From a virus (taxonomy: Duplodnaviria; Heunggongvirae; Uroviricota; Caudoviricetes): a stretch of 23,279 nt of DNA. The notes under the pieces are model-generated. The model did no database searches and was not told where the DNA came from. It was given only the letters and a program-made list of their open reading frames with translations. The stretch covers positions 1-23,279 of the IMG/VR virus record IMGVR_UViG_3300029816_000015; one strand, written 5' to 3'. The position numbers and the translations under genes are program-made. The stretch's first letter is position 1; each line of letters starts with the position of its first letter. This document shows, one piece after another, positions 6,837 to 20,570 of the stretch.

Positions 6837-7940
6837 TTAGTCTTTGGCGTCAGCACGAACATCTACCAGCAACTGAGGACGAGTACAGTATGGCAGCATG
6901 TAAGAGTGAGCTTCAAAGTCAATACCTTCGTCACGGTCTTTTTCGTATTCGAATACGTACAGTTCCTGACCAAGTGTGTTTGCATAACCCATCTTAGGAC
7001 ATGGACCATATGCAACTTCGAAGATGTTGTTAGCTTCACCAAGCATAGATACGTTAGGGAAAGCATGACCAACACCAACAGTTGCTGCTGCACCATCAAT
7101 GCTCACCAGAGTGTGAACCTTACCACGCTTGTCTTTGAACTTACCGTTGTACTGGACAAACTTAACACCACCGTAGTAGAAAGTGTTCATATGAGCCTGA
7201 ACGCCGTCAGTACCACCAGTTCTCAGAGAACCAGTAATCTGTTGCCAAGCCAGTGGGGTCTGCTGTGCAAGATAAGCGTCACGAATCTTAGGATGCTTAA
7301 CCAGCTTGCTGAAGAATACACGGTCAACAACTACGTGAATTTCTTCACCGTTGATTACAGTGCCAGTCTTAGCTTCGTCTTCCATGTGCATACGCAGTTC
7401 TTCAATAGAAGCGTCGATGTCAGCATTAGGGTTGTCAAGGTCGAAGTAAACAGTCTTCTTCTCAACGTCGAACTGCTTGTACAGGTCAGCGTACAGCGTA
7501 CCACGAGCATCAACAACTTTACCCTTCAGAGCTTGCATAAACAGGAACTCACGAGTAATATCGAACTTGGTACGAATCTTCATCAGCTTCTTAGCACGTA
7601 CTACAGCTTCAGTAGTCAGTTCGTTTGCAGTGCCTGGCTGACGTACACCCTGAATTTCATCAGGAGTGATGCTTTCAACTTCTTTGAAGTACATCATTGG
7701 GAAGCTGATTTGACGGACACGCTCAGGTGCGCTAGTCTCTGCTTTACGGCTATCACGGTCTACCGCATCAAGCAAGCTAACATCCCAATCAGTCAAGTCC
7801 ATAAGGAAAGTAGTTTGGGTGATTGGTGCTGAACGGAATAGACCTAAGTTGGAAATATACCCATAAGTATTTGGGATAGACTGGACTTCACCAGTCAGGT
7901 CAGCAAGGAAAAATCTGCTTTTTTCAGAATTAGTCAACAT
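6837..7940 (-). CDS. Major capsid protein
   Basis: 367 aa ORF following decoration and protease/scaffold genes (lambda-like C-D-E order); RBS GGAGAA 9 nt upstream of ATG; long antisense ORF 6906..7832 is spurious. Confidence 0.7.
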   Translation of the reverse strand: MLTNSEKSRFFLADLTGEVQSIPNTYGYISNLGLFRSAPITQTTFLMDLTDWDVSLLDAVDRDSRKAETSAPERVRQISFPMMYFKEVESITPDEIQGVRQPGTANELTTEAVVRAKKLMKIRTKFDITREFLFMQALKGKVVDARGTLYADLYKQFDVEKKTVYFDLDNPNADIDASIEELRMHMEDEAKTGTVINGEEIHVVVDRVFFSKLVKHPKIRDAYLAQQTPLAWQQITGSLRTGGTDGVQAHMNTFYYGGVKFVQYNGKFKDKRGKVHTLVSIDGAAATVGVGHAFPNVSMLGEANNIFEVAYGPCPKMGYANTLGQELYVFEYEKDRDEGIDFEAHSYMLPYCTRPQLLVDVRADAKD

Positions 7941-8362: not shown

Positions 8363-9709
8363 TTATTTAATAAGAGATTTTAGAGCATTCTGGAGAGCCA
8401 GTTTGCGTTGTTCAGCGGTGTCTTCGGAAGCATTCTTAGCTGGTTCTTTTTCTTCTTCAACCAAATCAGCTTCGCCGTCATTACCCACTTCTTCCATAGC
8501 GTTGGAATGTTCAAGAACAGCACCAGCAGTTTCTTTCAGCTTGGTAATTTCTGATTCTTTTTCTTCCATTGCAGAAGCATGGGACGCGATAGTTTCATTA
8601 AGTTTCTGGTTAGCACCTTCCATAGCATTCATAAACAGAACACTCAGAGGGTTATCAAGACCAGCACCTAAAATAGTCGTTGCAGCTTCTTTTGCATCAA
8701 ATCCAAAAGCTTCAGCAGAAGCAGAAATCTTATTAGTCAAATCTGACAAAGCAGCTTCCTGTTCTTTAGCTTTCATTTGAGCAACCTGAAGACGCAAAGC
8801 TTCTAGTTCTTGCTTTTCTTGTTCAGTCATTTCTTCACCTGAATTGTTAACGTTTAAACTTACAGGAGCCTCTTCAGAACCTTGTAAGTAATTTAAGAAA
8901 TCATCTTGAGACATGATTGAGTTAATTAAACCAAGTTCAAGAGCTTCCTGAGCAGAATAAACATTCGCCTCAGTATTCTTTACAGCTTCTTCAGAGAGAT
9001 TACGAGATTCAGCTACAAAACCTGTAAAGGTTGCGTAGGTATCATTAATTCTCTTTTGAAGTCTTTCTTTGCTTTCTTCTGAAAGTGCTTGGAATGGTGA
9101 ACCCATACCTTTAAACTCACCAGCTTTGATGACGTTAATTGTTACGCCATTCTTTTCAAATGCCTTAGTTAATTCCTGATGAACCATGATTACACCGATA
9201 GAACCAACATCTGCATCTGGTGATGCAATAATTTCTTCAGCAGAAGATGCAAGAGCATATGCAGCGGAACAAGCGAACTCATCTACATAAGCAATAATTT
9301 TCTTTTGGCCTCTTGAAGCCATAATGTGACGTGCTAATTCAAAGCAACCTGAAGCTTCACCACCACCAGAATCAATATGCAGAACAATAGTCTTAATTGA
9401 CTCATCTGCTAGAGCTTCGTCAAAGCCTCTACGTAAACCCTCATAAGAGCTTAAACCACCAGTACACATTGCATCAATGAATGTCATACGATGAGTTAAA
9501 CCACCCATAATAGGGATAATAGCAATATCATCTTTTACTTTTAAAAGACTTCTTGCTTCACCTTTGGGTTTATCAAAGTTTACTGCTGCTTGGACATCAC
9601 CCAGCAATCTGTTATTCACATAAGTTGCTGCTGAGTGAGCTAATGATTCAGTGGCTAGTAAAGGTTGGTTGAATAATCTATCAGCAAGTCTGAAGATATT
9701 CGAACTCAT
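8363..9709 (-). CDS. Prohead protease (S49/SppA-like) fused to scaffold-like C-terminal region
   Basis: 448 aa; N-terminal half has S49-like motifs (LHIDSGGGEASG..., FACSAAYALASSAEEII with candidate catalytic Ser); C-terminal half is acidic, helical, Glu/Ala/Lys-rich like a scaffold; RBS GGGTGAG upstream. Confidence 0.75.
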   Translation of the reverse strand: MSSNIFRLADRLFNQPLLATESLAHSAATYVNNRLLGDVQAAVNFDKPKGEARSLLKVKDDIAIIPIMGGLTHRMTFIDAMCTGGLSSYEGLRRGFDEALADESIKTIVLHIDSGGGEASGCFELARHIMASRGQKKIIAYVDEFACSAAYALASSAEEIIASPDADVGSIGVIMVHQELTKAFEKNGVTINVIKAGEFKGMGSPFQALSEESKERLQKRINDTYATFTGFVAESRNLSEEAVKNTEANVYSAQEALELGLINSIMSQDDFLNYLQGSEEAPVSLNVNNSGEEMTEQEKQELEALRLQVAQMKAKEQEAALSDLTNKISASAEAFGFDAKEAATTILGAGLDNPLSVLFMNAMEGANQKLNETIASHASAMEEKESEITKLKETAGAVLEHSNAMEEVGNDGEADLVEEEKEPAKNASEDTAEQRKLALQNALKSLIK

Positions 9710-14255: not shown

Positions 14256-14990
14256 TTATTTCTGTAATGCGTTCTTCATTTCTGGTGTTGCAATAGTATC
14301 AATTACACCAGTTTTACAAGCATCATCAAACCAGTCTGGTAAGATACCTGCTAAGAACCCATTGATATTCGTTTTAAGGTACTCTGCAATAAGGGCAGCT
14401 TCTTCTTCAATCATCTGCACAACTTCATCTGCATAAGCTGTAATCTTCGAGATACCTTCATTAATCTTACTAACAGCTTGGTTAGCTAAATCAGAAACAG
14501 TATCAAGACCTTTATCAATAGCATCTTGTAAGTCACTTAATACATCATTAACACCGTCTAGTGCACTGTTAATTGTGTCAATAGCTTTTTGACCATACTC
14601 TGTAGCAACACCCATAATACCACTAAATGGTGTACAACCAACTTGCTCTCCTGCTGCACCCATAACATTGGAGTAGCCTTTTGCTACCTGCATACGTGAG
14701 GAAAACTCATCAATAGACTTTTGACCATAATCTGTCAATGTCTTAGTGGTTGATGTAGTGCTTGTCAGACTCGTTGTAAAGCTATTAAGCAGAGCTGTTG
14801 TAAGTCCAGCAGCAATGAGCTTATCCTTCATTGTAGGGTCTGTTACAGAGCTAATAGAGCTTACAAGTGATGTAGAGGCAGCCACGGTTCCACCTAGAAC
14901 TGCTGCACCAGTAATAAGGGGATTAGAAAACCCTCTACCGGTTTTTAAGAGATTAAAAATCTCCTTACCTTGTTCTGTCATCTCTTTCAT
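14256..14990 (-). CDS. Hypothetical protein embedded in the tRNA array
   Basis: 245 aa from ATG 14988-14990 with RBS AAGGTG 5 nt upstream; the ORF-track 5' extension to 15053 overlaps tRNA-Phe and is rejected. Ala/Thr/Ser-rich, helical C-terminal half. Confidence 0.55.
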   Translation of the reverse strand: MKEMTEQGKEIFNLLKTGRGFSNPLITGAAVLGGTVAASTSLVSSISSVTDPTMKDKLIAAGLTTALLNSFTTSLTSTTSTTKTLTDYGQKSIDEFSSRMQVAKGYSNVMGAAGEQVGCTPFSGIMGVATEYGQKAIDTINSALDGVNDVLSDLQDAIDKGLDTVSDLANQAVSKINEGISKITAYADEVVQMIEEEAALIAEYLKTNINGFLAGILPDWFDDACKTGVIDTIATPEMKNALQK

Positions 14991-15008
14991 TAAGCACCTT
15001 TGAAATTG

Positions 15009-15083
15009 GTAGTCCAGTGGGATTTGAACCCTCTTCTCATGTTTTTCAGACACGCGCTTTAACCATATAAGCTACTTGGACTA
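15009..15083 (-). tRNA. tRNA-Phe (anticodon GAA)
   Basis: Acceptor TAGTCCA/TGGACTA; T loop TTCAAAT; anticodon stem-loop CGTGT-CTGAAAA-ACATG; D stem weak. Confidence 0.55.
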
Positions 15084-15441: not shown

Positions 15442-15999
15442 TTACTTTCTTAGTGGATGAATAAAGAATGCCAACATAACTCTTTCCCTTGAGAATGCTC
15501 TTTCTTCTGGGACAACACTTTTAAGTTTCCACCCAACATAAATTCTCCAGTAGAATTGCTTACCAAAGACTTTAATTGACGGGATAAAAGCGAATAATCC
15601 CCAAGCATTACTGTTCCACATTAGGAGATAACCTGTCTGATTATCTTCAGGGTTAGAACTTACATTGATATTACCTTTCCACTTAGTAACATCTTTTACA
15701 TCTCTTCCTAACACATGGTAAGAGAAGTTATAAGCTTTGTTTCTCCAGAGCCAACCAACTCTCTGCATATAGACACCAAGCTTACCAATCTTTCTAATCT
15801 TAGCCCATCGTTCGACATGACCTTTATCACCATCAATTGGGTTGTCATATGTCTCCATCCATCTGAATCCAAAAGGGAGATGTCCTTTCTTCTCACTGTA
15901 GAATGGAACTACGAAAGGTGCTAAGATAACTGCTAAGATTGCTGCAAATGGCTCTAACAAAGCTAAGAAAATCCATGAAGCATACTTCAAATATCTCAT
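15442..15999 (-). CDS. Hypothetical membrane protein embedded in tRNA array
   Basis: 185 aa ORF with RBS AAGAGG upstream of ATG; N-terminal hydrophobic helix (WIFLALLEPFAAILAVILAPFVVPF), Trp/Lys-rich remainder; flanked tightly by tRNA genes. Confidence 0.55.
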   Translation of the reverse strand: MRYLKYASWIFLALLEPFAAILAVILAPFVVPFYSEKKGHLPFGFRWMETYDNPIDGDKGHVERWAKIRKIGKLGVYMQRVGWLWRNKAYNFSYHVLGRDVKDVTKWKGNINVSSNPEDNQTGYLLMWNSNAWGLFAFIPSIKVFGKQFYWRIYVGWKLKSVVPEERAFSRERVMLAFFIHPLRK

Positions 16000-16757: not shown

Positions 16758-17011
16758 ATTAAATCTTTTTAGAGAACTTCTAAGAACCTAAGCAACAAGG
16801 TTCCACAACAAGCTGTAATAACCTTAGAAGCCCTCTAAAAAGACCTAATTTGGTCTTTGCATAGTCTTGTTTAATCCGGTGACTAGAACCTTTGGAGAGC
16901 TTGATATATCTCTTCTCCGTGACACCTACTAGGTGCTTTATCAGTGTACGACAATACACGAGGGATAAACCGAAAATGCGAGCAAGCATGGACGGTGTAA
17001 ATCTTATTAGG

Positions 17012-17115: not shown

Positions 17116-17195
17116 CATGGGACGGAGGAGTTGAACCCCTTTGAAACGGTTTTGGAGGCCGTTGCTCATGCCTTAGAGTCTTAACATCGTCCCAT
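17116..17195 (-). tRNA. tRNA-Trp (anticodon CCA), enlarged D region
   Basis: 80 nt; acceptor ATGGGAC/GTCCCAT perfect, anticodon stem ACGG/CCGT with loop CTCCAAA, T loop TTCAACT, CCA encoded; D region about 7 nt longer than standard. Confidence 0.5.
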
Positions 17196-17340
17196 ACTGT
17201 AATTCGAAGCTTACCGTATTTTCACAACACTGTAAAGCCCCTTCTCAGATTATTTACATGTTCTGGAAAACATGAGATACAGACCACCTCCTTACACGGA
17301 GACCCGATAAGGTCGTCTAAGCAATCTGCTAACTATTTGG

Positions 17341-17414: not shown

Positions 17415-17617
17415 ATTAATCTTTAAAAACTCTCTTAGAAAGCCCTTAAAGATGCCCACCTTATTAATCATACCGTGGGCTAGTACGCCAAATTCTTTGA
17501 TGAGGGATTGGAAGACCTCACTGGTGTTTAGCCTATCAAGCTACTGCCAGAAAAACATTGTCGTTTGCATTTATTTTAAATTTGCAAAATAGACGCTACG
17601 CAACGAAAACTAAGGTT

Positions 17618-17646
17618 ACTATAAAGTGGTCACATCTAAATGTCAA
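17618..17646 (-). promoter_or_regulatory. Sigma70-like promoter inside the tRNA array (minus sense TTGACA-N17-TATAGT)
   Basis: -35 TTGACA at 17646..17641 and -10 TATAGT at 17623..17618 with a 17-bp spacer; predicted start near 17610, about 195 nt upstream of tRNA-Arg(TCT). Confidence 0.5.
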
Positions 17647-17664
17647 CAACTTTATTGAAATTGG

Positions 17665-17815: not shown

Positions 17816-17822
17816 ATATTGG

Positions 17823-17895
17823 TAGAAGTGGAGGGATTCGAACCCATCGCCTGTCAGATTAAAAGTCTGCCGCATCACCATTCTGCTACACTTCC
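17823..17895 (-). tRNA. tRNA-Lys (anticodon TTT)
   Basis: Acceptor GGAAGTG/CACTTCT, anticodon stem CAGA/TCTG with loop CTTTTAA, T loop TTCGAAT with GGG/CCC core as in the other Lys tRNA, CCA encoded. Confidence 0.55.
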
Positions 17896-17901
17896 ATTAA
17901 A

Positions 17902-18040
17902 TTATCTTTGTAGATAAGCTACCCAGACTTGCTTAAGGTCTGTAGCGATGTGCCTTGTTGGGTTTAAATCTAGAATTTACCCTTTCACCCTTTGTGGTCG
18001 CATACTCACAGGTAAGCTTAATAACTTATCTACAAAGATA
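17902..18040 (-). repeat. Long hairpin: 17-bp perfect inverted repeat (TTATCTTTGTAGATAAG / CTTATCTACAAAGATAA) enclosing about 105 nt
   Basis: Arms at 17902-17918 and 18024-18040 are exact reverse complements; interior holds smaller hairpins including CCAGAC-N8-GGTCTG (17922-17943); no tRNA fold found. Confidence 0.5.
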
Positions 18041-18044
18041 ATTA

Positions 18045-18176
18045 CCAGACCGTTGTTTATCATCTTAAGTGCTACCATTACACCAACTCGACATCTGCCG
18101 AGTGAAGGAATCGAACCTTCGCCTTTTCTTTACCGGAGAAATAGATTGTTTAAGTTTTGCTGTAAACGGTCTTCTG
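18045..18176 (-). ncRNA. Candidate Y-RNA-like ncRNA (YrlA-type) with permuted tRNA-like module
   Basis: Closing helix from minus-sense CAGAAGACCGUU (5') and AACGGUCUGG (3'); interior in minus sense has T arm GAAGG-UUCGAUU-CCUUC, then hairpin ACUCGGC-AGAU-GUCGAGU, then D-arm-like UGGUGUAAUGGUAGCAC. No anticodon arm. Confidence 0.4.
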
Positions 18177-18188
18177 TAAATTTGTTGA

Positions 18189-18265
18189 GCCAGACCAAGT
18201 TTTAAATTTTCAAAATTAAATTGGCTTTAAATTTTAAGTAACTTGCTGAATTTGGTCTTCTGCTC
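18189..18265 (-). ncRNA. Bulged-helix hairpin element, same closing helix as 18045..18176, AT-rich interior
   Basis: Arms GCCAGACCAAG (18189-18199) and TTGGTCTTCTGC (18252-18263) pair as AGACC/GGUCU plus a 3-nt bulge plus GG/CC; loop about 50 nt without tRNA-like arms. Confidence 0.3.
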
Positions 18266-18277
18266 CTTTAAAGAATA

Positions 18278-18314
18278 CTCGTAAGAACCCTTTAAGGGAG
18301 GGGCTAAATAGCCC
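18278..18314 (-). promoter_or_regulatory. Conserved spacer motif (minus sense CTTAAAGGGTTCTTACGAG) next to small hairpin GGGCTA-AA-TAGCCC
   Basis: Near-identical to the motif at 15174-15195 (minus sense CTTCTAAGGGTTCTTACGAGAG); weaker copies at 16770-16790 and 17428-17450. Function unknown. Confidence 0.3.
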
Positions 18315-18326
18315 TCTCAAAATTGG

Positions 18327-18400
18327 CGGTTACGATGAGACTTGAACTCACATCATCTCCCGTGACAGGGGAGTATTTTATCCAGTTAAACTACATAACC
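18327..18400 (-). tRNA. tRNA-Asp (anticodon GTC)
   Basis: Acceptor GGTTATG/CGTAACC, T arm GTGAG-TTCAAGT-CTCAT, perfect anticodon stem CTCCC/GGGAG with loop CTGTCAC, CCA encoded. Confidence 0.65.
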
Positions 18401-18409
18401 TTTATTTGG

Positions 18410-18494
18410 TGTGCCGTGTAGGAGTCGAACCTACCGAGTCTCAATGACAAGGGATTTACAGTCCCCACCGCTACCATCTACGGGATAACGACAC
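18410..18494 (-). tRNA. tRNA-Tyr (anticodon GTA), long variable arm
   Basis: 85 nt; acceptor GTGTCGT/ACGGCAC, D stem CCG/CGG, anticodon stem GGGGA/TCCCT with loop CTGTAAA, long variable arm, T arm GTAGG-TTCGACT-CCTAC, CCA encoded. Confidence 0.65.
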
Positions 18495-18506
18495 ATTTAA
18501 ATTTGG

Positions 18507-18580
18507 CGGTTAGTCAGGGATTCGAACCCTGTGCCATTCGCTTAACAGGCGACCGCACATACCTTATGTGCTTCCTAACC
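18507..18580 (-). tRNA. tRNA-Asn (anticodon GTT)
   Basis: D stem GCAC/GTGC perfect, anticodon stem GTCGC/GCGAA with loop CTGTTAA, T arm CAGGG-TTCGAAT-CCCTG, CCA encoded. Confidence 0.65.
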
Positions 18581-18590
18581 TTAATATATT

Positions 18591-18655
18591 GCCAGACCGT
18601 GTTTTTTTTTCTTTTATCCGCAAAAAGTAGTTTATTGCTGCATACGGTCTTCTGC
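18591..18655 (-). ncRNA. Bulged-helix hairpin element (third copy)
   Basis: Arms GCCAGACCGT (18591-18600) and ACGGTCTTCTGC (18644-18655); 7-bp helix plus 3-nt bulge plus G-C pairs; 43-nt loop with a poly-T run on plus. Confidence 0.3.
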
Positions 18656-18663
18656 AAAATTGG

Positions 18664-18737
18664 AGGCGGGTGCAGGAGTCGAACCTGCCGATGCCATGCT
18701 AATGAGACATGTGAGACGCCCTTTCTCTATACCCGCA
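18664..18737 (-). tRNA. tRNA with anticodon CAT (second copy; Met, fMet or Ile2-type)
   Basis: Acceptor TGCGGGT/ACCCGCC with 1:72 mismatch, T arm GCAGG-TTCGACT-CCTGC, anticodon stem CATGT/GCATG with loop CTCATTA (U at position 37), CCA encoded. Confidence 0.5.
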
Positions 18738-18748
18738 ATTCTTAATGA

Positions 18749-18821
18749 CCAGACCAAATCTCTTCTTTGTCCGATTTAGCTTCAGATGAATAAGATTAAG
18801 TTTGCTGTAATTGGTCTTCTG
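18749..18821 (-). ncRNA. Bulged-helix hairpin element (fourth copy)
   Basis: Arms CCAGACCAAA (18749-18758) and TTGGTCTTCTG (18811-18821) enclosing an AT-rich 50-nt loop. Confidence 0.3.
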
Positions 18822-18831
18822 TCAAAACTGG

Positions 18832-18906
18832 CGTTCCAGAAGGGATTTTAACCCTCAAATATCCACTTTGAAAGAGTGGTGACTATACCATTTTGTCTAC
18901 TGGAAC
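18832..18906 (-). tRNA. tRNA-Glu (anticodon TTC)
   Basis: Acceptor GTTCCAG/CTGGAAC perfect, D stem GAC/GTC, perfect anticodon stem CCACT/AGTGG with loop CTTTCAA, unusual T loop TTAAAAT, CCA encoded. Confidence 0.6.
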
Positions 18907-18916
18907 ATTAATTTGG

Positions 18917-18990
18917 TCTCTGTTGGAGGACTTGAACCTCCGGCCTTACCGCCCCAAACGGAACACTCTACCAAGCTGAGCTAAACAGAG
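18917..18990 (-). tRNA. tRNA-Pro (anticodon TGG); first gene of the array in transcription order
   Basis: Acceptor CTCTGTT/AACAGAG perfect, T arm GGAGG-TTCAAGT-CCTCC, anticodon loop TTTGGGG, CCA encoded. Confidence 0.65.
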
Positions 18991-19016: not shown

Positions 19017-19046
19017 ACTTTAACATTATTTTTTAGTGATTGTCAA
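19017..19046 (-). promoter_or_regulatory. Sigma70-like promoter for the tRNA array (minus sense TTGACA-N18-TAAAGT)
   Basis: -35 TTGACA at 19046..19041, -10 TAAAGT at 19022..19017; predicted start about 10-20 nt upstream of tRNA-Pro. Confidence 0.45.
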
Positions 19047-19108
19047 GAACTTTTTTAAAATATTTTTCAGTATCTTAGAAAAGCTCTCATTTCGTTTCTA
19101 TGTAGAAC

Positions 19109-19137
19109 ATATTAAAGGGTATCAAACACATTGTCAA
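19109..19137 (-). promoter_or_regulatory. Second sigma70-like promoter (minus sense TTGACA-N17-TAATAT) overlapping a hairpin
   Basis: -35 TTGACA at 19137..19132, -10 TAATAT at 19114..19109, 17-bp spacer; the -35 lies in the loop of hairpin GGGTAT...ATACCC (19117-19142). Confidence 0.45.
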
Positions 19138-19155: not shown

Positions 19156-19521
19156 TTACCAGATATAACGGTCAACCATTACTGCTTTGAGCATTACGCT
19201 GATTGGGTCAAACTTCTCACCACCAAGCAGAGCTTTTAAAGTGGCTGGAGAGAACCCTGATACCATCGCTACACCATTATCCTTAACAGATACTTCGCAA
19301 GTACCATTACGGTTTGCTAAGTACCAGAATACTAGTTGTGGCATTTCGTATCCAGCTTTTTTGTACTTACTCTGAATTGCTTCAAAGTTTGTACGACCAT
19401 TTGCACCATCAACCTGATTAAACTCCATATCAGAGAAGATAATAAGCTTACTTGGCATATCTTTCTGAGTCAAGTTGTTTCTCTTACCTATCTCAAGAAT
19501 ACGGTCAAAGCTGCTTGTAAG
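19156..19521 (-). CDS. C-terminal part of Ro60/Rsr-like (or DUF2828-like) vWA-domain protein, out of frame with N-terminal part
   Basis: Frame open from just after a TAA at 19522-19524; encodes LTSSFDRILEIGKRNNLTQKDMPSKLIIFSDMEFN... (second half of a vWA fold). ORF track entry 19156..19473 begins at an internal TTG. Confidence 0.55.
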   Translation of the reverse strand, partial: LTSSFDRILEIGKRNNLTQKDMPSKLIIFSDMEFNQVDGANGRTNFEAIQSKYKKAGYEMPQLVFWYLANRNGTCEVSVKDNGVAMVSGFSPATLKALLGGEKFDPISVMLKAVMVDRYIW

Positions 19522-20570
19522 TTAGTTGAACCATATTCAACATGACGCATTACCTGACGATGACGGTTTCGTAAATCACCACTCAGTTCAATGAAATGAG
19601 GGTTTGTTGAATAGACCATTAACTCATCTTTAAAGCAACCTGTATTGCGTTCTGCTACATACAAGGCAAGTGATACACCAATATCAAGGGCAGTGATTGA
19701 ACCAAGATTCACCCAAGACATTGAGCTTGAAACATCAGTCATACACAAGATGTTCTCACCTTCTGCCATCCAGTTTGGTAGTGCTTTCCACTGCTCATTA
19801 GCAACATCTGCATTACCATGCTTGATAGACTTAATCACATCGTATGGGTAGACAGCACCAGCATTAATCTTAGCCTCACCTTTTGATAAGGACTCAATGT
19901 AAGCTTTGTAGCGTTCTCCATCTTTGCGGTTAAAGAGCTTTTGGTAACGTGCAGCAGCAAGAGACGGAATCTTACTGTAATCAATCTTACCAAACTCATT
20001 AGCAGAGATTTTTTGCTCAACCGTATCAGACAGTGCAGATAACAGTGTGCGGTATTCTTTCTCGCTTAAGTTTGCAAACTTACAGAAACGTTTTACAAAC
20101 TGTTTGTGTCGTGGTTTTACTCGTGGTAACCACTTGGCTGCTAAACCTGCTGTCTCAGGGTCTAGTAATGCTGCTTCTAAATGCTTAAAGGCATCTGTCT
20201 CAAAACGAGTACCTACGAAGATTTTGAAGTCATCAAAACGACCAAGTTCTGCAATCTTATCCATAATACGAAGAAACTGTGTAGGCTCTAAAACTTTATC
20301 TTCGATTGCTTGAAGTAAAACAGTTCTGAAGGCTTTACGCTCACCCATACCTTCTCGTACATCTCGCATGTGAAGCAAAATACGAACTGCAACATCAACA
20401 TCCTCACGCAAAGCTTTGTAGAACAAGTCTGGTAAGATTTCTACATTGCTACGGCTTGAACCAGCAGCTTTGTAAAAGTCCACAAGAGCAGACATTGATG
20501 AAGTATGGTTTACAGCACCATTTTCAGTTCGACCTGCATGAAGGTGCGCATGTTTAAATAATTCGCTCAT
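19488..20570 (-). CDS. N-terminal part of Ro60/Rsr-like (or DUF2828-like) protein: helical domain plus start of vWA domain
   Basis: 360 aa; RBS AAGAGAG upstream of ATG; helical N-terminal about 280 aa, then DxSxS motif (CMTDVSSSMSW) typical of a vWA MIDAS; ends at TAG 19488-19490 inside the vWA domain. Confidence 0.6.
   Translation of the reverse strand: MSELFKHAHLHAGRTENGAVNHTSSMSALVDFYKAAGSSRSNVEILPDLFYKALREDVDVAVRILLHMRDVREGMGERKAFRTVLLQAIEDKVLEPTQFLRIMDKIAELGRFDDFKIFVGTRFETDAFKHLEAALLDPETAGLAAKWLPRVKPRHKQFVKRFCKFANLSEKEYRTLLSALSDTVEQKISANEFGKIDYSKIPSLAAARYQKLFNRKDGERYKAYIESLSKGEAKINAGAVYPYDVIKSIKHGNADVANEQWKALPNWMAEGENILCMTDVSSSMSWVNLGSITALDIGVSLALYVAERNTGCFKDELMVYSTNPHFIELSGDLRNRHRQVMRHVEYGSTNLQAALTVFLR

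What the first reader, a model, noticed from the sequence alone, without database searches (positions are those of the whole stretch)
18189..18821. Family of hairpins sharing one bulged closing helix but with unrelated loops
Arm pairs at 18189/18252, 18591/18644 and 18749/18811 (plus the one at 18045/18165) all form the same helix: AGACC/GGUCU, then a 3-nt bulge (AGA on the 5' strand in minus sense), then C-G pairs. Loops range from 43 to about 110 nt and differ in sequence. Related shorter CAGACC/GGTCTG hairpins occur at 17922-17943, 17277-17321 and 16838-16860. Conservation of a bulged helix with free loop sequence points to a protein-binding or processing determinant, for example the Ro-like protein, RNase III or RNase E.
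Basis: seen in the sequence. Interest (0 to 1): 0.55.

Follow-up and report, generated by a model that had tools for sequence, protein, structure and literature searches.

The report
Phage small RNAs partnering Ro60-like protein
The four hairpins between the tRNA genes of this FelixO1-like phage are genes for an undescribed, widespread family of small RNAs that always sits beside a Ro60-like protein gene, much as Y RNAs accompany Ro60, and their conserved core closely resembles the orphan 'Class I' RNAs of Dictyostelium.

Summary
Four minus-strand elements (E1 18746-18824, E2 18589-18657, E3 18187-18265, E4 18042-18179) share one closing module. It has a 4-bp outer helix that covaries, an AGA/G internal loop, a 7-bp inner helix, then single-stranded N3-CAGCAA, an A-rich 3' part and CUG. 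E4 also carries a V-T-acceptor-D tRNA-like domain, as YrlA Y RNAs do.

In 83 distant phage loci encoding this protein, the core module occurs 111 times on the gene's strand and 11 times on the other, against about 5 expected. Sixty per cent of these lie within 600 nt of the gene. Three tRNA-rich phages lacking the gene have none.

A covariance model trained only on non-Ounavirinae phages finds E1-E3 at E about 1e-6. All 75 of its hits in the surveyed loci are on the gene's strand.

No Rfam family covers these RNAs. The nearest is Dictyostelium Class I RNA, and the resemblance holds in both directions.

Most likely they are Y-RNA-like partners of the Ro60-like protein, released from the tRNA transcript by tRNA processing. 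Binding and function are untested. I rate this a new variant of a known kind.

The parts
18746..18824 (-). E1: short (Class-I-like) element between tRNA-Glu and tRNA-Met. Outer helix UGAC/GUCA, AGA/G loop, inner helix AGACCAA/UUGGUCU, UUA-CAGCAA. The core from G to CUG is 18750-18816.
   Evidence: CM R1, trained only on distant phages, scores it 40.5 bits, E=7.4e-7.
18589..18657 (-). E2: short element between tRNA-Met and tRNA-Asn. Outer helix UUGC/GCAA, inner helix AGACCGU/ACGGUCU, AUG-CAGCAA, long A-run before the 3' strand. Core 18593-18649.
   Evidence: R1 scores it 40.9 bits, E=5.8e-7. Rfam RF01414 scores it 22 bits, below threshold.
18187..18265 (-). E3: short element downstream of tRNA-Asp. 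Outer helix GAGC/GCUC, inner helix AGACCAA/UUGGUCU, AUU-CAGCAA. Core 18191-18257.
   Evidence: R1 scores it 39.1 bits, E=1.6e-6.
18042..18179 (-). E4: long element with the same module (outer helix UUAC/GUAA, inner helix AGACCGU/ACGGUCU, UUA-CAGCAA; core 18046-18171). It encloses a permuted tRNA-like domain: V-like hairpin 18125-18141, T arm GAAGG-UUCGAUU-CCUUC 18104-18120, closed acceptor-like stem 18086-18103, D arm 18068-18084.
   Evidence: MFE fold shows a four-way junction. The Rfam tRNA model aligns 18103-18153 at 22 bits. The order V-T-AS-D matches YrlA as described in PMC4201824. The Rfam YrlA model does not hit it, and R1 does not capture it whole.
19156..20570 (-). Ro60-like protein gene (Pfam DUF2828 + DUF7788/vWA; PHROG 850 'RNA-binding protein'). 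In this window a frameshift near 19495-19520 splits it into ORFs 19488-20570 and 19156-19473. It is the ortholog of Bas63 gp130.
19017..19137 (-). Two sigma70-like promoters (19137-19109, TTGACA-17-TAATAT; 19046-19017, TTGACA-18-TAAAGT). They lie upstream of tRNA-Pro and read into the tRNA/E1-E4 array.
   Evidence: Consensus match only. No minus-strand terminator-like site lies between 19000 and 17900.
17820..18990 (-). tRNA genes that punctuate the elements: Pro 18914-18990, Glu 18829-18906, Met 18661-18737, Asn 18504-18580, Tyr 18407-18494, Asp 18324-18400, Lys 17820-17895. Their 5' and 3' processing sites would set the ends of E1 and E2 (3-4 nt before and 8 nt after the outer helix).
   Evidence: Spacing was read from the sequence. 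The processing itself is inferred.

Best explanation
E1-E4 are genes for four small non-coding RNAs of a widespread, previously undescribed phage RNA family. This family is the Y-RNA-like partner of the Ro60-like (DUF2828/vWA) protein encoded immediately upstream. Shown: the RNAs share a closing module of A-G-N5 paired with N5-C-U, then an unpaired G, with single-stranded N3-CAGCAA right after the 5' strand and an A-rich stretch before the 3' strand. The helix covaries. The module co-occurs with the Ro60-like gene, on its strand and mostly within 600 nt, in phages of Proteobacteria, Firmicutes, Actinobacteria and Campylobacter. A subset, including E4, carries a YrlA-type permuted tRNA mimic. 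Inferred: in this phage the RNAs are transcribed with the tRNAs from the promoters at about 19.05-19.14 kb. They are released when RNase P and the tRNA 3'-end enzymes cut out the flanking tRNAs. The Ro60-like ring binds the helix end plus the CAGCAA hexamer, as Ro60 binds the conserved Y RNA stem. The variable or tRNA-like part then gates the ring or recruits a partner (a nuclease, a tRNA enzyme or a defence protein). This contributes to the anti-defence role reported for the Bas63 ortholog (gp130 counters Ppl).
Against: There is no expression, end-mapping or binding data, so the protein-RNA link rests on gene neighbourhood and analogy. Individual hairpins are not unusually stable (z -1.5 to -1.9). 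The canonical Ro60-binding motif GNCGAA(N)G is absent. The Rfam YrlA model does not hit E4. The protein does not match Pfam TROVE. The window's copy of the protein gene is frameshifted. 27 of 83 distant loci gave no strict hit, partly because of variant geometry or truncated contigs.
Confidence: 0.7

Rival explanations
1. The RNAs are real and belong to this family, but a different protein recognises the module. Candidates are a host factor, an RRM-type protein such as Rnp1A (which binds Dictyostelium Class I RNA), or another phage protein such as the adjacent DUF5681 product. Under this reading the Ro60-like gene is only a frequent neighbour.
For: No binding data exist. The only proven direct binder of the look-alike Class I RNA is the RRM protein Rnp1A. 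DUF5681 sits next to the Ro60-like gene in Ounavirinae.
Against: The association follows the DUF2828 gene through phages that share little else (Listeria, Campylobacter, Mycobacterium and Bacillus phages, vibriophages, and uncultivated viral contigs). Density rises 15- to 25-fold within 600 nt of the gene. DUF5681 was not listed next to the gene in the non-Ounavirinae loci whose gene tables were fetched.
Confidence: 0.12
2. The hairpins are cis-acting processing or stability signals of the polycistronic tRNA transcript, that is, sites for RNase III, RNase E or RNase P, or protective structures. They are not independent functional RNAs.
For: They lie in inter-tRNA spacers and are co-transcribed with the tRNAs.
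Against: There are no hits in the tRNA arrays of T2, a T5-like phage with more than 30 tRNAs, or an rV5-like phage, all of which infect the same hosts. In many phages the elements flank the Ro60-like gene with no tRNA beside them. The element has a conserved single-stranded hexamer and a tRNA-mimic domain. From general knowledge, a helix of 7+4 bp is short for RNase III.
Confidence: 0.07
3. The elements are cis-regulatory leaders or trailers of the Ro60-like gene's own mRNA, for example autoregulatory binding sites.
For: 39 of 111 distant copies lie within 600 nt upstream of the gene on its strand.
Against: In this window they lie 330-1100 nt downstream of the stop codon, beyond two promoters and between tRNAs. 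There are tandem arrays of 3 to 7 copies. Some copies are kilobases away inside tRNA clusters. Some carry tRNA-like domains. This reading is compatible with protein binding, so it is not fully exclusive of the best explanation.
Confidence: 0.06
4. The elements are DNA-level repeats, such as miniature inverted-repeat mobile elements, recombination sites or decayed tRNA genes, with no RNA function.
For: They have inverted-repeat termini. E4 contains tRNA-like pieces. A collapsed copy sits at 17922-17943.
Against: Compensatory changes occur in both helices between copies and between phages. G.U wobbles pair on one strand only. The strand bias is absolute (75 to 0). The arms differ between copies in one genome, unlike transposase-recognised terminal repeats.
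Confidence: 0.03

Closest known systems
Bacterial and phage Y RNAs of the YrlA/YrlB type with Ro60/Rsr (Chen et al. 2014, PMC4201824; Rfam RF02553)
   Same: Small RNAs encoded beside a Ro60-fold protein gene on the same strand, often several per locus. A stem formed by the 5' and 3' ends carries the presumed protein-binding site. One class (E4 here; L072 and L026 elements elsewhere) holds a permuted tRNA-like domain in the order V-T-acceptor-D. The rest are short with variable loops, like YrlB. Genomic neighbours include RtcB-type RNA ligase in the Listeria phage.
   Different: The recognition motif differs: A-G helix, N3-CAGCAA and 3' CUG instead of GNCGAA(N)G. The protein is the DUF2828/DUF7788 family, not Pfam TROVE. 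RF02553 does not detect E4 and reaches only 29-39 bits (gathering score 69) on relatives. In this phage the RNAs are embedded in a tRNA array.
Dictyostelid Class I RNAs (Rfam RF01414; Kjellin et al. 2021, PMC7919456)
   Same: About 60 nt. A 6-7-bp stem joins the 5' and 3' ends, with structure conserved but not sequence. An invariant G pairs with the C of a 3' CUG(U). Single-stranded ..UUA-CAGCAA follows directly after the 5' strand. An A-rich stretch precedes the 3' strand, and the remainder is variable. The resemblance is reciprocal: RF01414 hits phage elements (36.1, 25.2, 24.3 and 22 bits). The phage-derived descriptor recovers 28 of 37 Class I RNAs and 0 of 7400 shuffles. A phage-only profile ranks 22 of 28 above all 2800 decoys.
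   Different: The spacer is 3 nt in phages and 4 nt in Dictyostelium. Phage RNAs have an extra A-U pair, and in Ounavirinae an outer helix. All RF01414 scores are below the gathering score of 41.5. Class I RNAs have their own DUSE promoter and are reported as unique to Dictyostelia. Their only proven binder is the RRM protein Rnp1A. Whether Dictyostelium has a DUF2828 protein could not be tested here.
Thermus phage phiLo Ro60 with Yrl1/Yrl2 (PMC12135203; PDB 9KOP, 9L5Y)
   Different: It is a TROVE-type protein whose RNAs carry the CGAA motif. There is no tRNA array and no CAGCAA module.
Bas63 gp130 (PhageMaP preprint, bioRxiv 10.1101/2024.10.10.617714)
   Same: It is the orthologous Felixounavirus gene, directly upstream of the tRNA block. 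The authors noted its similarity to Ro60, showed it counters the Ppl defence, and speculated that Y RNAs exist among the tRNA genes.
   Different: No RNA was identified there. The RNAs found here are not annotated tRNAs; they occupy the inter-tRNA spacers.

Membership tests
Y RNA / YrlA (RF02553) | Encoded near a Ro60 ortholog, on the same strand | tested here: met
   E1-E4 lie 330-1100 nt downstream of a Ro60-fold gene on the minus strand. The protein is a Ro60 paralog family (DUF2828), not Pfam TROVE.
Y RNA / YrlA (RF02553) | Conserved 5' motif GNCGAA(N)G / GGUCCGA in the stem | tested here: not met
   The 5' strand reads CAGAAGACC. There is no CGAA. The motif definition comes from PMC4201824.
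Y RNA / YrlA (RF02553) | tRNA-like domain with T arm, closed acceptor-like stem and D arm (plus V), in that order | tested here: met
   Met by E4 only. E1-E3 lack it, as YrlB does.
Y RNA / YrlA (RF02553) | Scores at or above the Rfam gathering threshold (69 bits) | tested here: not met
   No YrlA hit on E4 even at E<=10 in a 161-nt search. Related elements in L072 and L026 reach 28.7-39.2 bits.
Y RNA / YrlA (RF02553) | Binds the Ro60 protein | not testable with these tools
   Needs EMSA, RIP or a structure.
Dictyostelium Class I RNA (RF01414) | Short stem joining the 5' and 3' ends, with an invariant G paired to the C of a 3' CUG(U) | tested here: met
   G-C is invariant in 71 of 71 trimmed elements and CUG is invariant, although both are fixed by the search pattern used to collect them. 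In the window the 3' end reads CUGG.
Dictyostelium Class I RNA (RF01414) | 11-nt single-stranded motif CCUUACAGCAA adjacent to the 5' strand (near-invariant U3, C6, C9, A10, A11) | tested here: inconclusive
   CAGCAA is present in all four elements, preceded by UUA, AUG, AUU and UUA. The spacer is one nucleotide shorter than in Dictyostelium.
Dictyostelium Class I RNA (RF01414) | Scores at or above the Rfam gathering threshold (41.5 bits) | tested here: not met
   Best in the window is 22 bits (E2). Best in related loci is 36.1 bits (L082).
Dictyostelium Class I RNA (RF01414) | DUSE promoter and occurrence in Dictyostelia | tested here: not met
   This is a phage context, co-transcribed with tRNAs from sigma70-like promoters.
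Ro60 / TROVE proteins (for the neighbouring gene) | HEAT-repeat ring plus C-terminal vWA domain with a MIDAS site | tested here: met
Ro60 / TROVE proteins (for the neighbouring gene) | Matches Pfam TROVE (PF05731) or solved Ro60 by sequence | tested here: not met
   Only DUF2828 and DUF7788 match, even at E<=10. phmmer against PDB sequences finds nothing.
New phage family defined here (CM R1) | Detected by a covariance model trained without any related (Ounavirinae) sequence | tested here: met
   E2, E1 and E3 score 40.9, 40.5 and 39.1 bits, E about 1e-6. They are the top three hits of a 142-kb search. E4 is not captured because of its 100-nt insert. It meets the structural descriptor instead.

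The most novel reading that the evidence does not exclude
The phage elements and the Class I RNAs of dictyostelid amoebae are one RNA family: the dedicated RNA partners of DUF2828-type Ro60 paralogs. From memory, unverified here, Pfam describes that protein family as eukaryotic and viral. If so, the Ro60-Y RNA paradigm has a sister system spanning phages and eukaryotes. The 20-year-old orphan Class I RNAs would gain a predicted protein partner. One candidate is the uncharacterised DdR-21 pull-down protein DDB_G0281243, or another Dictyostelium DUF2828/vWA protein.
Probability: 0.3. Interest if true: 0.92.

Novelty: new variant of a known kind. Interest (0 to 1): 0.8.

Why it matters
About 1.4% of sequenced phages (710 of 50,697 records) encode this Ro60-like protein. 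They include model and therapeutic phages: FelixO1-like, Listeria P100/A511-like, Campylobacter, KVP40-like and mycobacteriophages. One ortholog is an experimentally supported anti-defence factor. Its RNA partners had only been guessed at.

This work gives their sequence and structure signature, a working covariance model and exact coordinates. RIP, EMSA and deletion experiments can therefore be designed at once.

It adds a second, sequence-distinct recognition module to the Ro60/Y-RNA world and a new set of tRNA mimics inside phage tRNA arrays. It corrects annotation, because some records place hypothetical ORFs over these elements. It also offers a concrete, falsifiable hypothesis for the function of Dictyostelium Class I RNAs.

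Tried and rejected
- Rfam at gathering and at permissive thresholds finds no family that covers E1-E4. There is only a partial tRNA hit in E4 and sub-threshold RF01414 hits.
- The first scanner, which required the outer helix, was noisy (about 3 false hits per locus). The outer helix also turned out to be specific to Ounavirinae, so the scanner was replaced by the core descriptor.
- Exact AGAAGACC is absent from relatives at 55% protein identity, so the arms are conserved in structure, not in sequence.
- CM R1 cannot capture E4.
- The AFDB libraries were unavailable, so the taxonomic spread of the protein in cellular organisms could not be checked.
- Avesson 2011 is not held. The sequence of DDB_G0281243 is in none of the held supplements. 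'Dictyostelium' and 'DUF2828' never co-occur in the searchable literature.
- RF01414 gave no hit in four further loci, so that model is only sporadically sensitive to phage copies.
- The RNase III/E, mobile-repeat and terminator readings were considered and set aside for the reasons given under the rival explanations.
- The three 'short related hairpins' were rejected as family members.

Full report
CONTEXT. The window comes from a FelixO1-like myovirus. The region 17900-19000 matches 289 phage records, 235 of them over at least 80% of its length, mostly Felixounavirus. ARAGORN finds 26 tRNA genes, all on the minus strand, between 14082 and 18990. The finding lies in the spacers of this array. 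Two sigma70-like promoters (19137-19109 and 19046-19017) precede the array on the minus strand. No minus-strand terminator-like site lies between about 19000 and 17900.

THE OBSERVATION. It is confirmed.
- All four exact CAGAAGACC sites and all four minus-strand GGTCTGG sites of the 23-kb window lie in 18045-18821, and they pair one-to-one.
- Read as minus-sense RNA, each element is: outer helix (4 bp), AGA, AGACCNN, N3, CAGCAA, variable part, NNGGUCU, G, outer helix. RNAfold recovers this structure.
- The outer helix differs between the four copies in a compensatory way (UGAC/GUCA, UUGC/GCAA, GAGC/GCUC, UUAC/GUAA).
- The 'bulge' is really a 3x1 internal loop.
- The loops are not free. All begin with N3-CAGCAA and end A-rich.
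- E4 (18042-18179) contains a V-like hairpin, a canonical T arm (GAAGG-UUCGAUU-CCUUC), a closed 7-bp acceptor-like stem and a D arm, in that order. This is the permuted-tRNA architecture described for YrlA Y RNAs (PMC4201824).

THE NEIGHBOURING PROTEIN.
- Immediately upstream on the same strand is a DUF2828+DUF7788 gene. A frameshift near 19495-19520 splits it in this window. It is an intact 471-aa CDS in relatives.
- An AlphaFold2 model of the intact ortholog is confident (pLDDT 90.6, pTM 0.90).
- The nine best Foldseek PDB matches are all Ro60 proteins, aligned full-length.
- The MIDAS residues are invariant across the family.
- By sequence the protein matches neither Pfam TROVE nor any PDB chain.
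- The family (PHROG 850, 'RNA-binding protein') occurs in 710 of 50,697 phage records. These include vibriophages, Campylobacter, Listeria, Staphylococcus, Enterococcus and Bacillus myoviruses, and mycobacteriophages, where SEA-PHAGES calls it 'Ro-like RNA binding protein'.
- Its Ro60-likeness is therefore already known at annotation level. For the orthologous Bas63 gp130, a preprint notes the similarity, shows that it counters the Ppl defence, and speculates that some 'tRNA genes' are Y RNAs without identifying any.

THE RNA FAMILY.
- Phages whose protein is only about 55% identical (a Yersinia phage and an uncultivated contig) keep the synteny DUF5681, Ro60-like gene, tRNA array. They carry the same module with different helix sequences, for example GGACUGU/ACAGUCC and AGUAUC/GAUACU. 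Some copies again enclose T, acceptor-like and D arms.
- I reduced the module to a core descriptor: G-x5-(3 or 4 nt)-CAGCA[AT], then 12-300 nt, then y5-CUG, with x and y fully paired.
- In 83 distant loci (1.35 Mb, mostly about 40% protein identity) it hits 111 times on the gene's strand and 11 times on the other. Shuffles give about 5 per strand. 56 of the 83 loci have at least one hit. The tRNA regions of T2, a T5-like phage with more than 30 tRNAs, and an rV5-like phage have none.
- 67 of the 111 hits lie within 600 nt of the gene (0.58-0.79 per kb against 0.03-0.05 per kb elsewhere). The base before the G is A in 97 of 111, although the scan did not require it. 54 hits are 80 nt or shorter, and 15 contain a T-arm motif.
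- A test that does not presuppose pairing: of 115 sequence-only seeds near the gene on its strand (only 6 on the other strand), 58% have a perfect, correctly placed partner. With shuffled downstream sequence the figure is 1.9%.
- On 71 trimmed elements the five variable pairs show 5-6 pair types each, and 196 cells are changed on both sides (53 in shuffles). The covariation score is 0.99, against 0.19 for shuffles and 0.07-0.14 for slid registers. The selection required those five pairs, so the enrichment figures are the stronger evidence.
- Mooglevirus copies contain G.U wobbles that pair only in minus-sense RNA.
- A covariance model built from 41 short elements, none from Ounavirinae, ranks the window's E2, E1 and E3 as the top three hits of a 142-kb search (40.9, 40.5 and 39.1 bits; E about 1e-6). 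It finds nothing in the controls.
- Over 1.37 Mb that model gives 75 hits at E<=0.01. All are on the gene's strand, and 34 were not in the training set.
- Isolated phages carry the elements beside the gene. Listeria LP-083-2 has three in tandem directly upstream, with an RtcB-like ligase and an RNA ligase downstream. Campylobacter F368 has one directly upstream. Mycobacteriophage Kingsolomon has three in the gap after its Ro-like gene. Bacillus Tsamsa has three.
- Rfam's own YrlA model hits elements adjacent to the gene in L072 (28.7 and 38.9 bits) and L026 (39.2 bits). These are the same RNAs that carry the CAGCAA module.

RESEMBLANCE TO DICTYOSTELIUM CLASS I RNA.
- The only non-tRNA Rfam family that aligns to these elements is RF01414: E2 at 22 bits, then L082 at 36.1 and 25.2 bits and L072 at 24.3 bits, all on the gene's strand. 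All are below the gathering score of 41.5.
- Class I RNAs are about 60 nt. Their 5'/3' stem is conserved in structure but not sequence. An invariant 5' G pairs with the C of a 3' CUGU. The motif CCUUACAGCAA follows the 5' strand, and the rest is variable (PMC7919456).
- Using the curated D. discoideum sequences, the phage-derived descriptor recovers 28 of 37 full-length and 0 of 7400 shuffles. All 28 use a 4-nt spacer, whereas true phage copies use 3 nt.
- Both sets have about 48-49% A in the 12 nt before the 3' strand.
- A structure-blind profile built from phage elements alone ranks 22 of 28 distinct Class I RNAs above the best of 2800 decoys.
- Of the four proteins pulled down with Class I RNA DdR-21, one (DDB_G0281243) is uncharacterised. 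I could not obtain its sequence, nor test whether Dictyostelia encode a DUF2828 protein.
- The resemblance is therefore a computed fact. Common ancestry or a common protein partner remains a hypothesis.

MECHANISM.
- Shown: a structured, strand-specific, covarying RNA family is genomically coupled to a Ro60-fold protein, and a subclass mimics tRNA.
- Inferred: E1-E4 are transcribed with the tRNAs. E1 and E2 begin 3-4 nt after the 3' end of the upstream tRNA and end 8 nt before the 5' end of the downstream tRNA. Ordinary tRNA processing would therefore release them.
- Inferred by analogy with Ro60-Y RNA: the Ro60-like ring binds the helix end plus CAGCAA, and the variable or tRNA-like part gates the ring or tethers a partner. 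This would serve RNA surveillance or repair, or the counter-defence role reported for gp130.
- Nothing here shows binding, expression or function. Individual hairpins are not unusually stable.

NOVELTY. The protein's Ro60-likeness and the idea that Y RNAs might exist nearby are prior art. The RNAs themselves, their module, their distribution and their likeness to Class I RNA are absent from Rfam 15. I found them in none of the papers returned by ten full-text searches. I rate this a new variant of a known kind (the Ro60/Y-RNA type of RNP), with an unexcluded and much more novel reading that links it to the dictyostelid Class I RNAs.

Noticed in passing
window 19156-20570 (-), around 19495-19520: The Ro60-like gene is split into two ORFs by a frameshift (protein residues 1-359 in one frame, 351-471 in another). 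It is intact (471 aa) in related phages. Truncated versions (218-333 aa) also appear among database homologs, so disruption or sequencing and annotation error may recur.
   Followed up: partly
window 17415-17661 (-): The 250-nt gap between tRNA-Arg and tRNA-Ile gives weak tmRNA and permuted-tmRNA Rfam hits (29 and 13.9 bits). It also holds a near-consensus promoter (17646-17618, TTGACA-17-TATAGT).
   Followed up: no
window 17119-17193 (-): A degenerate tRNA-like sequence (tRNA-Sec model, 23 bits) that ARAGORN does not call. It may be a decayed tRNA or another tRNA mimic.
   Followed up: no
window 17922-17943 (-): The small hairpin GCUAC-AGACC-UUA-AGCAA-GUCUG-G-GUAGC looks like an internally collapsed copy of the module. 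It has the outer helix and an AGCAA remnant, but no proper inner helix or loop.
   Followed up: partly
window 14256-15053 and 15442-15999 (-): Two protein genes (DUF7217 and DUF7338) are embedded inside the tRNA array.
   Followed up: no
L003 ~9000-9230 and L002 ~7600-7780 (+): Two distant Ounavirinae-like phages share a conserved tRNA-like element with a long insert (gcgggtgtagtt...ggttcgattccctcc...gaaaataacacgaggcgac...). It is unexplained.
   Followed up: no
L089 4429-4980; L028 1353-1676; L082 10279-10638; L026 15696-15922: Loci with the Ro60-like gene often hold other structured RNAs nearby: a ROOL-like RNA in Listeria phage LP-083-2 (87 bits, below the gathering score of 99), a permuted tmRNA (71.7 bits), a tmRNA (44 bits) and a group I intron.
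   Followed up: no
L089 8815-12527: In Listeria phage LP-083-2 the Ro60-like gene is followed by an RtcB-like ligase, a 'tRNA amidotransferase' and an RNA ligase. This echoes the bacterial rsr-yrlBA-rtcBA operon.
   Followed up: no
L087 1762-1932 (SUSP2); window ORFs 17948-18205 (+) and 18503-18745 (+): Some GenBank records annotate small 'hypothetical protein' ORFs over these RNA elements (the SUSP2 CDS covers the E2 ortholog). The mechanical ORFs overlapping E1-E4 in the window are probably spurious.
   Followed up: partly
e.g. L014 11408-11472, L024 11397-11458, L046 16881-16934: Many short elements carry one or two further AAGCAA/CAGCAA copies inside the variable loop.
   Followed up: no
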